In this document: positions 55,352-64,000 of the stretch, piece after piece | Numbering within the stretch: position 1 is the first letter of the stretch | Layout: each line of letters starts with the position of its first letter | Origin: a virus | Lineage: Duplodnaviria; Heunggongvirae; Uroviricota; Caudoviricetes | DNA: 64,000 bases | Virus record (IMG/VR): IMGVR_UViG_3300032053_000007 | Reading direction: 5' to 3' (one strand) | The notes under the pieces: model-generated | Database searches by the model: none | What the model saw: the letters and a program-made list of their open reading frames with translations, nothing else | What the model was told of the DNA's origin: nothing | Translations under genes and position numbers: made by a program

Positions 55352-55672
55352 CGAATCGTAGCTCGTAACGAGGCTGTGCACCCTTTACCCCGACCTCTAA
55401 CCATATAACACAAATTGTTAAGCAAATTCCCGAACCCCAGAGAACCCACGTCCGACCCCTAACCCAGACCCTCTAACGACCTCTAATCACTAACCCCCCC
55501 AAGAGAGCCATATACCCCCAAAAGTGGAGTCCATGCTTAAAAGAAATGCTCGATAAAAGATACTGATGACCTTTACATACGTAAAGGAAAGGGTTGTCAT
55601 ACGTAAAGGGTCTATGGAGTGGAATGTTGGCATACGACAACGGCGTGATTGACATAGTGCTGTAGCTCTATT

Positions 55673-55829: not shown

Positions 55830-56192
55830 GCAGGGCGAACCGACAGGTAGAAGGGACGGCGTGAACTCTCTGACCAGAAAATAATTGGAACCAAAAAAAC
55901 GCCTATGTGCGCTTATGTGATATTCTCAGTTGCATTCTATGGACAATTTCCTGTTAACCGAGGCGTTACCCCAAAAGTTGCACTTTTTGTTACACTAGAA
56001 GTTGTGCTAGACCAAAACGTTTATATACCCCCTATTTAAGCGTATCGCCGATAGCCTTATATAGTAGCTATTTAAACCTATCGGTTGCTTATATATGTGC
56101 AAACTTAGCAAAATTCGAACCATAAAGTACAACTCTCTATTATCACGTCCTTCGAACCATATACCGCAACTCTTATATAGATGCCATACTTA

Positions 56193-56225
56193 CTTATAAA
56201 CGTTTGCCCAGAACGACCATGCTCG
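56193..56225 (-). promoter_or_regulatory. GAGCATGG-box/TATA promoter cassette (minus strand)
   Basis: reverse complement reads cGAGCATGGtcgTTCT..TTTATAAG; offset 24; no convincing CDS downstream. Confidence 0.5.
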
Positions 56226-56346
56226 ATTTAGAGGCTGATTCAGGGCGGAAACAACTAACGGAGCACACTTACAGATTCGAACTCGCGCCGATGACTAGCT
56301 CTGAGACTGATTAACTAAAACGAACGTCATCGAACGGTGAATTCAT

Positions 56347-56526
56347 TAGGACTGATGACAATTTTGACGTTCTAACATTACCCCGAACTCCACGATTTAG
56401 CCTTATTCGACTAAACGGGGCGTACTCGCTCAATATCGTTGAGCAAATATAAAGGGAATTGAGCGTATTGCTCCGAACGACCCGCTCACAGGTTGATTTT
56501 AGAAAACGGGCATTATCCACAGTCCT
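56347..56526 (+). repeat. conserved 180-nt noncoding element, copy 2
   Basis: same landmarks and spacing as 42341-42520; hairpin cgctcaat/attgagcg shows a compensatory T-A to C-G change. Confidence 0.5.
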
Positions 56527-56792
56527 ACCCGCCATTGCTGGCGCGAACGGGCTTCGAACTTGGTTGTACTTTGAGTTACATTGAATATACATCATGCGTT
56601 ACTATGTAATATACGCTTAACGCGAACAACTCCAACTCTCTCAAACATACGTTCTCAGCGCACTATATATACGTTTGCTTTTTCCTGTACGACACATCTA
56701 CAAGTCAATGGTCGAACTGTTGGTTTAAGCTACACTTTAATGGAAACGTTTATAAGAGAGGGTGCGAACGTTATTCTAAGGACGTGAAACAC

Positions 56793-57287
56793 TTGAACGA
56801 TAAGGACGAATTGACACGACTTGAAAACTTAGCGCAAAAACTAGGTTTTACCGTGATATATAATTTAACCCTTAGCTGGAATCATTCGAAGGTTTCCTTT
56901 TATCCATGTCGAAGAATCCTTATCGGAACTAAGAACTATTCACCAAATTCAAATATCGGTTATGGAACCATACCTGATAAGGTTAAAGCGTTAATTCTGA
57001 ATCACGAGCTAGGGCATATTGTCGTATATGAAACGCTTTACCCTAACATGGATTTAGCTGATTTTTGTCTCTCAAATGATTCAAAATTCTTGGTACAACA
57101 AGAGATGTACGCATGGAAAACCGCAATAAATGAATCGCTCGATGATAATTCTGACCCTCTAGTGTTGGAATTGATACAAGAATCGATAAACCAATACATT
57201 TATTGTGAGTATATCGGAACATGCACAATAGAATCTCAGCAAGAACTACAGCAAAAAATAATTACTAAGTTTACACGTACAAAATAG
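56793..57287 (+). CDS. small HExxH metallopeptidase-like protein
   Basis: LNHELGHIVVYE; TTG 56793 six nt after AAGGACGTG (track used GTG 56784). Confidence 0.55.
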   Translation: MNDKDELTRLENLAQKLGFTVIYNLTLSWNHSKVSFYPCRRILIGTKNYSPNSNIGYGTIPDKVKALILNHELGHIVVYETLYPNMDLADFCLSNDSKFLVQQEMYAWKTAINESLDDNSDPLVLELIQESINQYIYCEYIGTCTIESQQELQQKIITKFTRTK

Positions 57288-59170: not shown

Positions 59171-59206
59171 CCCCCCTACCCCCTTTTTGTTTTTTTGGTG
59201 ATAATC

Positions 59207-59308: not shown

Positions 59309-59445
59309 AACTCCCTCTTTTTTTGACTTGCAAACTTAGCGGAAAAACAAATTTTAACTTAATATATACCTATGTGCGTTACACCCCAGACAGTTACCCC
59401 CAGAAGTTCAACTTTCGGTTGACCACAACCTTTATATAGGTCGCC

Positions 59446-59497
59446 ATACCGAAACGTTTATATACTACCCTATACCGAAACCCTTATATACTACCTA
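59446..59497 (+). repeat. two 26-bp tandem repeats each carrying a TATA box
   Basis: ataccgaaacSYttatatactaccYt x2. Confidence 0.55.
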
Positions 59498-59591
59498 TTT
59501 GACTTCATAGTTCCTGTTCTAACCATACAACACCGTCACTTATAAACCTTCCTATTTAACTGTTCAACAATAATACAGTTAGTACATTGTG

Positions 59592-60024: not shown

Positions 60025-60498
60025 ATGCCAATAAAAACCGTGGAATTTGTCTTATATCTCTCGGACGTTGTAAACTTAGGCTTTTCAGAATTGACGATTC
60101 AAAAAATTAAGCAGAGATTGATAGACCACTTTTCATTTGGTACGAATTTACCAGAGAATTACGTTGTAATTTATCCTCATATTGTAGCGTTTGAGATGCA
60201 CAACGAGGATAAAATTGTTCGCAAATTTAACTATACAGTTCTGCATGAATTGATACACGGATTACTTGAAGAGAGTGAACTTAATACAGAAGAGATGTGC
60301 CACGCTTGGAGTATGATACTAACCGATGACCGTGAATCAAATGTAAGCGGTCAAGGACACCACTATTATCAAATGTTAAAAGGACGAACAGAAATCGTTG
60401 TAAACGAAGAACCCAAATTCGAGGCGGAAAAGCTAAACGCGGCGCGGAATTTGTCCAGAATGCGATTAGTGAAACACCATGAGCTAACAGGACTTTAA
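60025..60498 (+). CDS. small HExxH metallopeptidase-like protein
   Basis: VLHELIHGLLEE. Confidence 0.55.
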   Translation: MPIKTVEFVLYLSDVVNLGFSELTIQKIKQRLIDHFSFGTNLPENYVVIYPHIVAFEMHNEDKIVRKFNYTVLHELIHGLLEESELNTEEMCHAWSMILTDDRESNVSGQGHHYYQMLKGRTEIVVNEEPKFEAEKLNAARNLSRMRLVKHHELTGL

Positions 60499-63288: not shown

Positions 63289-63377
63289 GCGAATTACTAA
63301 TAGCTCTCTTAGGCATCTTTTCAGCGTGGTTTATCTCTGACCAACTGATACAGAACGTAGGCAAAAAGAAAAAGTAA
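63285..63377 (+). CDS. TM mini-protein (30 aa)
   Basis: ATGA overlap; LLIALLGIFSAWFI. Confidence 0.4.
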   Translation: MSELLIALLGIFSAWFISDQLIQNVGKKKK

Positions 63378-63393
63378 GAGGGCTTCAATACAG

Positions 63394-63412
63394 CACGGGC
63401 TAATTGCCCGTG
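63394..63412 (+). terminator. terminator-like hairpin
   Basis: cacgggc-taatt-gcccgtg. Confidence 0.4.
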
Positions 63413-63573
63413 TTCCTAGTGATTAGCCTCTAGGTAGAATATAGCTAACTGATGAACCTTATAGGCTATGGTTTATAGGGTCAAGGTTGTTGCACTACAC
63501 TTGCAAGCTAGAGGCTATCACACAATAATACTTTTAGTACAACTAATTAGTTACACTTTTAGTTATACCAAAT

Positions 63574-63751
63574 CCTTATATACTAGCCTGTTTCACTTGT
63601 GCACAACACTACTATATAAACCTTTCACAACCCTTATATACTAGAGCCTCACTCACGAGCACAGCACTACTATATAAGGCTTACGCAACCCTTATATACT
63701 ACACCCTACCCCCTACCCCTATTTAAACTTATCGCAACGCTTATATACTAG
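63574..63751. repeat. 58-bp tandem repeats carrying inverted pairs of TATA boxes
   Basis: ccttatatactag at 63574, 63632, 63690 (and 63739); ctactatataa at 63610, 63668. Confidence 0.6.
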
Positions 63752-64000
63752 ACCCGCCCCTCTACCCCCTTATAAAGCTATCGGACAATTCTCAGTTGCA
63801 CTTTCGGTTGCACCCACAAGAGCACTAACAATTATCACAAAAAGTACAACTTTCAGTTACATCAACAAGTCCCCCGCCAGTTCCACCCACAGGCGAATCA
63901 GAGGTAATATAGTCCCCCCCTAAACACAGGAATTCGATTTTGGTGGATGGGACTAAGCTGGGTAAATTGCCCTATGTTTCAACTGGGTCATGATGTTTCA

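What the first reader, a model, noticed from the sequence alone, without database searches (positions are those of the whole stretch)
63574..63751. Tandem 58-bp repeats, each carrying an inverted pair of consensus TATA boxes
CCTTATATACTAG recurs at 63574, 63632 and 63690, with a diverged copy at 63739. Its inverted partner CTACTATATAA(G) recurs at 63610 and 63668. The repeat period is 58 bp.

Similar TATA-box arrays occur at 59446-59497 (2 x 26 bp) and 56012-56210.

No ORFs are associated with them. They sit next to C-rich ccctaccccct motifs and the gttgcactttcggttgcac dyad.

Candidate roles are TBP/TFB sinks, bidirectional promoters for tiny RNAs, or an origin or terminal-repeat structure. 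The window ends inside this region.
Basis: seen in the sequence. Interest (0 to 1): 0.6.

Follow-up and report, generated by a model that had tools for sequence, protein, structure and literature searches.

The report
Gene-less tandem promoter array, archaeal virus
A gene-free stretch of an uncultivated archaeal virus holds four tandem copies of a back-to-back pair of archaeal promoter cores, flanked by regularly spaced short repeats; related viruses keep the array but vary its copy number, so it is most likely a transcription control region, not a genome end or an assembly error.

Summary
CCTTATATACTA occurs at 63574, 63632 and 63690 (period 58), and GCTTATATACTAG at 63739 (period 49). Each copy faces an inverted TATA partner.

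The true repeat unit is a 32-bp back-to-back pair, TATATAAR-N12-CTTATATA. Spacers between units are 8-30 nt.

All eight elements score like this genome's own gene promoters for BRE plus TATA. The forward elements and their C-rich spacers match one of the genome's two promoter classes.

GTTRCAC direct repeats flank the array in a 12-bp register. They are not a dyad.

The source contig runs 73 kb past the window end, so this is not a terminus. The array appears in five independent assemblies, so it is not an artefact.

Relatives at 78-93% nucleotide identity keep it at the same place with two to six units. Smaller arrays at 56.0 and 59.4 kb have the same build.

There is no ORF, no recoding, no Rfam or tRNA hit, and no excess folding.

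Best reading (about 0.5): stacked bidirectional promoter cores that load host TBP/TFB/RNA polymerase, gated by an unknown repeat-binding protein. An origin or a factor sink remain possible.

The closest published analogue is the promoter-bearing intergenic repeats of halovirus HF2.

The parts
63394..63412 (+). Hairpin CACGGGC-TAATT-GCCCGTG followed by TTCC. It is the probable terminator of the upstream small-gene operon and marks the left edge of the gene-free region.
   Evidence: Read. Relatives carry a different but equally paired hairpin here followed by TTTCC or TTTTCC (columns 1-45).
63537..63568 (+). Upstream repeat cluster: GTTGTAC (on the - strand) at 63537, GTTACAC at 63550, GTTATAC at 63562. 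Spacing is 13 and 12 bp. The last heptamer ends 6 bp before the first TATA box. This is the only AT-rich piece (29-30% GC).
   Evidence: (period 12).
63565..63582 (+). P1: forward BRE+TATA core (ataccaaatc CTTATATA).
   Evidence: Matrix core score 12.3 bits; the median for gene promoters is 15.1.
63613..63630 (-). R1: reverse BRE+TATA core (ttgtgaaagg TTTATATA on the - strand).
   Evidence: Core score 13.3 bits.
63623..63640 (+). P2: forward core (tttcacaacc CTTATATA). With R1 it forms the first 32-bp back-to-back unit, with 12 bp between the two TATA boxes.
   Evidence: Core score 14.5 bits; unit structure.
63641..63670 (.). Spacer 2. Its core GAGCCTCACTCACGAGCACAGCACTAC is identical in L001, L013, L014 and L015.
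63671..63688 (-). R2: reverse core (ttgcgtaagc CTTATATA on the - strand).
   Evidence: Core score 15.4 bits.
63681..63698 (+). P3: forward core (ttacgcaacc CTTATATA). It matches the class B promoter type of this genome.
   Evidence: Core score 16.9 bits. Compare the gene promoters at 65675, 66075 and 66491.
63699..63719 (+). C-rich spacer 3 (CTACACCCTACCCCCTACCCC). It resembles the pyrimidine-rich stretch that follows the TATA box in class B gene promoters. The - strand carries G-runs.
63720..63737 (-). R3: reverse core (ttgcgataag TTTAAATA on the - strand). Its centre lies 29 bp from the centre of P3, so each element's predicted start site falls in the other's TATA box.
   Evidence: Core score 11.7 bits; the geometry is inferred from coordinates.
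63730..63747 (+). P4: forward core (tatcgcaacg CTTATATA).
   Evidence: Core score 16.6 bits.
63748..63768 (+). C-rich spacer 4 (CTAGACCCGCCCCTCTACCCC).
63769..63786 (-). R4: reverse core (gtccgatagc TTTATAAG on the - strand). The same 8 bp read forwards give a weak TATA match (3.1 bits).
   Evidence: Core score 12.4 bits.
63795..63886 (+). Downstream repeat block: GTTGCAC at 63795 and 63807, GTTGTAC (- strand) at 63844, GTTACAT at 63856, GTTCCAC at 63880. Spacings are 12, 37, 12 and 24 bp.
   Evidence: The same 12-bp register is seen in L015, L013 and L011, with nine copies in L011.
63887..64000 (+). Start of a conserved non-coding block (GTAATATAGTCCCCCCCTA, AATTCGATTTTGGTGGATGG, GTTTCAACTGG). 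It runs on to about window-equivalent 64200. Promoter-driven non-coding units follow, and the next gene starts at window-equivalent 64507.
59378..59502 (+). Module 2: four GTTNNNC-type repeats (59378-59424), then three forward class B cores at 59431, 59457 and 59483. The 26-bp period equals the usual distance from TATA box to start site.
   Evidence: Core scores 17.4, 20.1 and 18.1 bits. Conserved in L011, L013 and L014.
55965..56210 (.). Module 1: repeats at 55965-56008, then five forward and three reverse TATA cores, including two back-to-back units (TATTTAAG-N15-CTTATATA and TATTTAAA-N11-CTTATATA).
   Evidence: The array is larger (10-11 cores) in L011 and L014.

Best explanation
The array is a stack of archaeal core promoters (BRE plus TATA box). 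They are arranged as four tandem copies of a back-to-back pair.

It sits in a 1.1-kb gene-free control region of an uncultivated virus that uses archaeal-type promoters; the wider group appears to be tailed.

**Proposed mechanism**
- Host TBP and TFB dock on each box, and the adjacent BRE sets the direction.
- The forward boxes are of the genome's class B promoter type. They send RNA polymerase rightwards as nested non-coding transcripts, through the repeat block and the conserved non-coding block that opens the class B part of the genome.
- The reverse boxes send polymerase leftwards, antisense to the end of the upstream operon.
- The two initiation complexes that share a spacer overlap, so they compete for it.
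- The GTTRCAC repeats on both sides lie in a 12-bp register. They are the likely binding sites of a virus-encoded or host protein that switches the whole stack on or off.

**Shown**
- The sequence matches the genome's own promoters.
- The clustering exceeds chance.
- Position is conserved while copy number varies.
- There are no genes and no excess nucleic-acid structure.

**Inferred**
- Factor binding, actual transcription, its direction and its regulation.
For: 1. **Archaeal promoters throughout.** Nearly every + strand gene is preceded, 20-45 nt before its start codon, by AAAsS-TTTATAWA.
2. **Promoter-grade scores.** A matrix built from 60 ORF-linked promoters scores the eight array elements at 11.7-16.9 bits. 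The gene-promoter median is 15.1 and each element is in the top 0.06% of all positions. Eight such sites in 210 nt exceed every control.
3. **Two promoter classes.** Class A reads gcRAAgg-TTTATAWR-GGACGnTG. Class B reads aaCCRYAAss-YTTAWATA followed by pyrimidines. The forward array elements and their C-rich spacers match class B. Every promoter after 64.7 kb is class B.
4. **Fixed unit, free spacers.** The repeated unit TATATAAR-N12-CTTATATA keeps its spacing, while spacers range from 8 to 30 nt.
5. **Conservation.** The array is 97-99% identical in five independent assemblies. It is kept at the syntenic site in relatives at 78-93% nucleotide identity, with two to six units.
6. **Recurring module.** The same build (repeats, then a TATA array, then conserved non-coding DNA) recurs at 55.97 and 59.38 kb and is conserved there too.
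7. **Published precedent.** The intergenic repeats of halovirus HF2 carry promoters, some bidirectional. [quoted passage not shown]
8. **No competing reading of the DNA.** There is no ORF, no stop-codon recoding that opens one, no Rfam or tRNA hit, and no excess folding.
Against: - No transcription data exist.
- The 30 nt downstream of each array TATA box score like background (-8.2 to 0.0; gene-promoter median +4.6). The AT-rich promoter-proximal element seen at gene promoters is missing in units 1 and 2.
- Facing boxes 21-30 bp apart cannot both hold an initiation complex. In a relative one spacer is only 8 nt. Some elements may therefore bind factors without firing.
- No candidate repeat-binding protein was identified.
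- The rightward product shows no RNA structure and no clear terminator, so its purpose is unknown.
Confidence: 0.5

Rival explanations
1. Origin of replication or replication-control region. An initiator would bind the phased GTTRCAC repeats. The TATA boxes and the AT-rich piece at 63504-63600 would supply easily melted DNA or transcriptional activation of the origin.
For: - Direct repeats sit in a strict 12-bp register on both sides of the array, up to nine copies in L011.
- A 100-nt stretch of 29-30% GC lies at the left edge.
- The non-coding block is as conserved as the genes around it.
- Nucleotide-metabolism genes (dCMP deaminase, ribonucleotide reductase) lie 3.5-5 kb downstream.
- GTTTCAACTGG (reverse complement CCAGTTGAAAC) recurs three times just downstream and recalls ORB cores. 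This resemblance is from memory; one search gives only TTCCAGTGGAACT for Pyrococcus.
Against: - The module of repeats plus TATA array occurs three times within 8 kb.
- The heptamer lacks the TTCC...GAA core of ORB and mini-ORB boxes. The one GTTCCAC copy reads GTTGCAC or GTTACAC in relatives.
- The array itself is 41-50% GC, above the genome mean.
- No Orc1/Cdc6, MCM, Rep or primase was detected among the ORFs scanned in the 70 kb.
- Gene orientation does not switch at the site.
Confidence: 0.2
2. TBP/TFB sink. The boxes would bind host initiation factors without productive transcription. This would titrate them away from host promoters or buffer their supply between the two viral promoter classes.
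For: - The BRE/TATA cores are promoter-grade, but the downstream context is at background level.
- Facing boxes share spacers too short for two complexes.
- No gene or structured RNA lies behind them.
- Copy number, not exact sequence, is what varies.
Against: - The 70.5 kb examined already carries 94 cores of at least 10 bits, and this array adds 8. The extra titration is small.
- The BRE flanks are class-specific and the repeats are conserved, which a simple sponge does not need.
- Spacer 2 is identical across relatives.
Confidence: 0.1
3. Centromere-like partition site or packaging-recognition site. A protein filament would assemble on the phased repeats and on the inverted-repeat units, as at plasmid parC, sopC or tubC, or at phage cosB.
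For: - The architecture resembles plasmid R1 parC, with repeats on both sides of a promoter, and F sopC, with tandem about 43-bp units each holding an inverted repeat. Both comparisons are from my own knowledge.
- The repeats keep a 12-bp register.
- A gene with a ParB_N domain lies about 2 kb upstream of the window start.
Against: - No partition or terminase gene is adjacent.
- The module occurs three times.
- The inverted arms are exactly the genome's promoter consensus, which needs no extra explanation.
Confidence: 0.07
4. Neutral by-product. A promoter was amplified by replication slippage and the copies have no function of their own.
For: Tandem units with changing period (58 then 49) and variable copy number are typical of slippage.
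Against: - The array is kept at the same site in every relative examined, at an identity similar to neighbouring genes.
- BRE and TATA positions are invariant while the spacers vary.
- Three independent modules share the same build.
Confidence: 0.08

Closest known systems
Intergenic repeats of halovirus HF2 and other haloferacalesviruses (class I 58 bp, class II 29 bp; Russ, Pfeiffer and Dyall-Smith 2021, PMC8707807)
   Same: - Both are repeated intergenic elements in an archaeal virus (HF2 is tailed; a tailed morphology is only inferred for this virus's group).
- Both carry BRE/TATA promoters and are conserved in sequence and position among related viruses.
- Both fall into classes that suggest temporal control.
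- HF2 class II repeats have AT motifs separated by C residues and fire in both directions.
- HF2 also has promoters embedded in regularly spaced 12-bp direct repeats.
   Different: - HF2 repeats are dispersed single copies directly ahead of gene modules. Here three to six units stand head to tail with no gene behind them.
- There is no sequence similarity: neither near nor distant search of the phage collection gave a hit.
- Promoter activity was measured for HF2 and is only inferred here.
Tandem promoters ahead of one transcription unit (phage T7 early promoters A1-A3; multiple tandem promoters of the Halobacterium rRNA operon). Cited from my own knowledge.
   Same: Several strong host-type promoters are stacked within a few hundred bp and point the same way. 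Module 2 here (three forward boxes, 26-bp period) fits best.
   Different: - Those promoters drive known genes. Here the downstream DNA is non-coding.
- In the array of the finding, every forward box faces a reverse box.
Promoters flanked by phased repeats on plasmids (R1 parC with ParR; repeat-controlled rep promoters). Cited from my own knowledge.
   Same: Short direct repeats in a fixed register lie on both sides of core promoter elements, which suggests a wrapping protein that controls firing.
   Different: - Those are bacterial sigma-70 promoters with an adjacent gene for the binding protein. No such gene was identified here.
- The period here is 12 bp, and there are several promoters, not one.
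Archaeal oriC with ORB and mini-ORB clusters (Matsunaga et al. 2007, PMC1904270)
   Same: Clusters of short repeats lie in a conserved non-coding region next to easily melted DNA.
   Different: - The TTCC...GAA core is absent.
- The repeats here are direct, not inverted around an unwinding element.
- There is no orc1/cdc6 gene nearby.
- The module is present three times.
'Promoter islands' of E. coli (dense clusters of promoter-like sites with little productive transcription). Cited from my own knowledge.
   Same: An unusually high density of overlapping promoter-like sites on both strands, with no obvious product.
   Different: Those are bacterial, irregular and AT-rich, associated with horizontally acquired genes. 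Here the array is regular, tandem and conserved.

Membership tests
Archaeal BRE/TATA core promoter | An 8-bp TATA box matching the genome's own consensus, YTTAWAWA | tested here: met
   All eight elements match. CTTATATA or TTTATATA occurs in six of them.
Archaeal BRE/TATA core promoter | A BRE-like flank immediately upstream that sets the orientation | tested here: met
   The matrix over positions -10 to +8 gives 11.7-16.9 bits against a median of 15.1 for 60 gene promoters. The forward flanks cgCAACC equal those of the gene promoters at 65675 and 66491.
Archaeal BRE/TATA core promoter | A promoter-proximal and initiator context about 23-27 nt downstream, and a transcribed product | tested here: inconclusive
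   The downstream 30-nt score is at background level. In units 3 and 4 the predicted start site falls in the AT-rich opposite box. There is no ORF and no structured RNA.
Archaeal BRE/TATA core promoter | Measured transcription initiation or TBP/TFB binding | not testable with these tools
   This needs TSS-seq, ChIP or in vitro transcription.
HF2-type promoter-bearing intergenic repeats | A repeated intergenic element that contains promoter motifs and is conserved in position among related viruses | tested here: met
HF2-type promoter-bearing intergenic repeats | Dispersed single copies placed directly upstream of gene modules | tested here: not met
   The copies are tandem, and the next gene is about 730 nt beyond the last unit.
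HF2-type promoter-bearing intergenic repeats | Sequence relatedness to the HF2 alpha, beta and gamma motifs | tested here: not met
   The phage collection gave no match, near or distant. The motifs quoted are absent.
Archaeal replication origin (ORB type) | ORB or mini-ORB boxes with the TTCC...GAA core | tested here: not met
   The repeat is GTTRCAC. The core is quoted.
Archaeal replication origin (ORB type) | An AT-rich unwinding element flanked by inverted boxes | tested here: inconclusive
   A 29-30% GC stretch lies at 63504-63623, but the repeats are direct and the array is 41-50% GC.
Archaeal replication origin (ORB type) | An adjacent initiator gene (orc1/cdc6 or rep) | tested here: not met
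   None was found by Pfam among 60 ORFs scanned from the window and the 6.5 kb of source contig beyond it. The other 80 kb of the genome was not examined.
Genome terminus or terminal repeat | The sequence ends, or is repeated at the other end of the genome | tested here: not met
   The contig ena:ERZ27247916:k141_6238898 is 151,756 bp, the array lies at about 77.7 kb, and the sequence continues with + strand genes. Physical ends were not mapped.
CRISPR-like repeat-spacer array | Conserved repeats with spacers that differ between strains and have a regular length | tested here: not met
   Spacers are 8-30 nt. Spacer 2 is identical and the C-rich spacers nearly so across relatives. Spacers have no matches elsewhere.
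Assembly artefact | Present in only one assembly, or at a contig end | tested here: not met
   Five independent assemblies from ENA, JGI and Logan agree at 97-100%.

The most novel reading that the evidence does not exclude
The arrays are a dedicated nucleoprotein switch of a kind not yet described in archaeal viruses. They would be gene-less stacks of opposed BRE/TATA boxes that capture TBP/TFB or polymerase without making a useful RNA. A filament-forming protein on the 12-bp-phased GTTRCAC repeats would wrap or release them. The switch would redirect host initiation factors between the two viral promoter classes, or fire a transcription-activated origin.
Probability: 0.15. Interest if true: 0.75.

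Novelty: new variant of a known kind. Interest (0 to 1): 0.45.

Why it matters
Transcription control in archaeal viruses is poorly understood. These viruses rely wholly on host TBP, TFB and RNA polymerase.

This locus offers a compact and conserved test object:
- stacked, opposed core promoters with no gene behind them;
- two recognisable promoter classes in one genome;
- phased repeats that point to an unknown regulator.

It lies in a 14-kb stretch that appears to be roughly 40% gene-free by my estimate from the called genes. The stretch is full of promoter-driven non-coding units, including a covarying tRNA-like RNA. That is unusual for a virus.

If the arrays fire, they show how an archaeal virus boosts or times non-coding transcription. 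If they bind factors without firing, they would be a natural factor trap.

Either result can be tested directly with TSS-seq, ChIP or in vitro transcription.

Tried and rejected
- **Terminus or inverted terminal repeat:** rejected, because the contig continues.
- **Assembly artefact:** rejected.
- **Known phage or virus:** no DNA match in the phage collection or in viral contigs.
- **Metagenome scan with a conserved 20-mer:** returned only the already known relative plus two chance hits in bacterial 5'-nucleotidase genes.
- **Host identification through the viral ribonucleotide reductase:** the best matches are only 57% identical and are spread over DPANN, Bathyarchaeia, Methanobacteriota and bacteria, so they give no answer.
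- **tRNA or known RNA families:** none.
- **Hidden coding by stop-codon reassignment:** no long ORF opens. Small ORFs are not conserved.
- **Cruciform or structured RNA:** z-scores 0.01 and +0.94.
- **Structured RNA in the 300-nt element after modules 1 and 2:** weak, -10.6 kcal/mol with 2 covarying pairs.
- **CRISPR-like or antisense-guide reading of the spacers:** rejected.
- **ORB-type origin boxes:** the resemblance of CCAGTTGAAAC and GTTCCAC did not hold up. The Capaldi and Berger paper could not be read.
- **More distant homologues of a neighbouring 121-aa protein:** they lie in non-syntenic contexts without arrays, so they say nothing about deeper conservation.
- **Pfam scans of 60 ORFs:** no transcription factor, initiator or partition gene near the array.

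Full report
**What the window is**

The 64-kb window has about 37% G+C, with nearly all ORFs on the + strand.

Almost every gene is preceded, 20-45 nt before its start codon, by a purine-rich flank plus TTTATAWA. That is an archaeal BRE/TATA promoter.

Few proteins have recognisable domains. Those found are glycosyltransferases, an RNA ligase, a KaiC-like ATPase, an SPFH protein, a MoxR-type ATPase, a phosphatase and a SprT-like protein.

An exact-protein look-up places the window in an ENA contig of 151,756 bp.
- Locus L001 is identical to window 63301-64000 and extends the sequence 6.5 kb to the right.
- A glycan-synthesis block lies to the left. dCMP deaminase and ribonucleotide reductase lie to the right.
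- A distant relative carries an HK97-type capsid gene, so the group is probably tailed viruses.
- No host could be named.

**The observation**

The repeat is real, and the coordinates are right to within one base.
- There are four units. The period is 58 bp twice, then 49 bp.
- Each forward CTTATATAC faces a reverse TATA box 21-30 bp further on.
- The unit that keeps a fixed geometry is the 32-bp back-to-back pair TATATAAR-N12-CTTATATA, with centre sCTATCGcAACs.
- The segments between pairs vary from 8 to 30 nt in this genome and its relatives.
- 'gttgcactttcggttgcac' is a direct repeat, not a dyad.

**More than chance**

I built a matrix from 60 ORF-linked promoters of this genome.
- It gives the eight elements 11.7-16.9 bits, against a median of 15.1 for real promoters. 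Each is in the top 0.06% of positions.
- Eight such sites within 210 nt compare with at most 3 in composition shuffles and at most 6 in 5000 random placements.
- A loose regular expression is much less discriminating, with 2 of 300 shuffles reaching the same cluster size. The significance therefore rests on the BRE-plus-TATA match and on the exact 11-mer: 12 matches against 0.89 expected.

**Not a terminus, not an artefact**

The contig continues for about 73 kb, and + strand genes resume at window-equivalent 64507.

The array is 97-100% identical in five independent assemblies from three sources.

**Conservation**

Homologues of the neighbouring HExxH protein (50-79% identical) led to syntenic contigs L011 to L015. 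These are 78-93% identical to L001 at the DNA level.

All of them keep a TATA array at the same place, with different unit numbers:

| Locus | TATA-pattern hits in the array |
|---|---|
| L001 | 9 |
| L013 | 12 |
| L014 and L015 | 13 |
| L011 | 4, followed by nine GTTRCAC copies |

- The BRE and TATA positions are invariant.
- Spacer 2 is identical across L001, L013, L014 and L015.
- The C-rich spacers are similar but not identical.
- The block from the array to about 64.2 kb is as conserved as the coding DNA around it.

**Anatomy around the array**

1. A covarying terminator-like hairpin at 63394-63412 closes the upstream operon.
2. GTTRCAC heptamers flank the array on both sides. Their spacings are multiples of 12 bp (12, 24, 36, 48) in all four lineages.
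3. The same module (phased repeats, then a TATA array, then conserved non-coding DNA) recurs at 55965-56210 and 59378-59502.
   - In the second, three forward boxes stand 26 bp apart. That is the usual distance from a TATA box to the start site.
4. The genome has two promoter classes.
   - Class A: gcRAAgg-TTTATAWR-GGACGnTG.
   - Class B: aaCCRYAAss-YTTAWATA followed by a pyrimidine-rich stretch.
   - The forward array elements with their C-rich spacers are class B.
   - From 64.7 kb onward every promoter is class B.
5. The + strand of 63504-63944 is strongly G-poor. The array is 41-50% G+C, so it is not an AT-rich unwinding element.

**What it is not**

- No credible ORF, with or without stop-codon reassignment.
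- No tRNA or Rfam family.
- No folding beyond shuffles, either as DNA or as rightward RNA.
- No complementary targets for the spacers.
- No CRISPR-like behaviour.

**Mechanism**

The simplest account uses only what the sequence shows: these are docking sites for TBP and TFB.
- The BRE flanks orient the forward boxes to the right and the reverse boxes to the left.
- With TATA centres 29 bp apart (units 3 and 4) or 38 bp apart (units 1 and 2), the two initiation complexes that share a spacer overlap and must compete. This is inferred from coordinates.
- Rightward transcripts from successive units would be nested. They would read through the repeat block into the conserved non-coding block.
- Leftward transcripts would be antisense to the end of the upstream operon.
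- The phased repeats are the obvious place for a regulator, but none was identified.

I put this at about 0.5. The main weakness is that the context downstream of the boxes is unlike that of gene promoters, and there are no expression data.

**Rivals**

| Rival | Confidence | Main points |
|---|---|---|
| Origin of replication | 0.2 | For: phased repeats, an AT-rich edge, strong conservation. Against: three copies of the module, no ORB core, no initiator gene found, no change in gene orientation. |
| TBP/TFB sink | 0.1 | Fits the poor downstream context. But it adds only 8 cores to the 94 already present in 70.5 kb. |
| Partition or packaging site | 0.07 | Rests on architectural resemblance only. 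|
| Neutral slippage product | 0.08 | Contradicted by conservation of position and of the BRE/TATA positions. |

**Comparison with what is known**

The closest published case is halovirus HF2 (PMC8707807).
- Its 58-bp and 29-bp intergenic repeats were shown to be promoters, some active in both directions.
- They are conserved in place among related viruses.
- HF2 also has a bidirectional promoter region embedded in regularly spaced 12-bp repeats.

This locus works like that in outline. It differs in being tandem, gene-less and unrelated in sequence.

I rate it a new variant of a known kind, with moderate interest.

Noticed in passing
L001 14343-14466 (window-equivalent 64367-64490, just beyond the window end); also L011 9435-9557, L013 9970-10093, L015 7264-7387: A 124-nt tRNA-like RNA lies directly after a strong orphan promoter and just upstream of a 75-aa gene. 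It has an 8-bp acceptor-like stem, a T-arm-like hairpin with loop UCCGAAU and a long central arm. RNAalifold gives -49 kcal/mol with 4 compensatory pairs among only 4 sequences. ARAGORN and Rfam do not call it. It could be an intron-bearing or degenerate tRNA, an attP-like element as in HF2, or a structured 5' leader.
   Followed up: partly
window 52782-65720 (continuing into L001): An unusually gene-poor stretch for a virus, roughly 40% non-coding by my estimate from the called genes. It has many consensus promoters not followed by any ORF (for example 53115, 54474, 55057, 64207, 64335, 64730, 64878). This suggests a cluster of promoter-driven non-coding RNAs.
   Followed up: partly
window 56205-56560; homologous copies at L013 535-820, L014 5628-5915 and 9575-9850, L011 2216-2500 and 6014-6290: A conserved non-coding element of about 300 nt follows the TATA arrays of modules 1 and 2. 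In some strains it sits after module 2 instead of module 1. It has invariant islands rich in CGAAC (ATTCGAACT, CCGATGAC, TAGGACTGATG, CCGAACTCC, TTCGAC). Only weak consensus RNA structure was found.
   Followed up: partly
window 58629, 58736, 59578, 59754: Four copies of a 32-nt element. By eye, each looks like a short hairpin whose 4-5 bp stem covaries (TTGT/ACAA, TTGTG/CACAA, CGTG/CACG) around a conserved loop CTTCGATTCAC. It may be a small structured RNA motif or a protein-binding site.
   Followed up: no
window 52300, 52365, 55330, 55808, 58825: Five copies of the palindrome TTTTTAATCAGTTGATTAA (or TTAATCAACTGATTAA). They lie near gene ends or promoters and could be an operator or a terminator.
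   Followed up: no
window 52319, 53085, 53261, 53432, 54446, 54739, 55027: A conserved box GAGCATGGACGTTCT lies about 20 nt upstream of the BRE/TATA of seven promoters. It is a candidate upstream regulatory site for a subset of promoters.
   Followed up: no
window 56784-57287 and 60025-60498: Two distantly related paralogues (22% identity) with an HExxH metalloprotease-like motif. Each is preceded by the same long leader: a repeat pair, the box ATGTAATATACGCTTAACGCGA, and a divergent promoter pair. Homologues of this family (50-79% identical) were found on only a few metagenomic contigs.
   Followed up: partly
window 55380-55510 and 59172-59186: Long C-rich, G-poor tracts (ccctaacccagaccctctaacgacctctaatcactaaccccccc; CCCCCTACCCCCT) lie upstream of modules 1 and 2. 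They echo the C-rich spacers of the array. On the - strand they are G-runs with possible G-quadruplex potential.
   Followed up: no
whole window (promoters listed): The genome uses two distinct promoter classes. Class A reads gcRAAgg-TTTATAWR-GGACGnTG. Class B reads aaCCRYAAss-YTTAWATA followed by a pyrimidine-rich stretch. From 64.7 kb onward, class B is the only class. This suggests temporal classes read by different factors.
   Followed up: partly
L105 1-9922 (the 10 kb of the genome left of the window): The virus carries a glycan-biosynthesis block (SDR, hexapeptide transferase, glycosyltransferases, asparagine synthase-like, UDP-GlcNAc 2-epimerase, UDP-glucose dehydrogenase), plus a gene with a ParB_N domain and a trypsin-like protease.
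   Followed up: no
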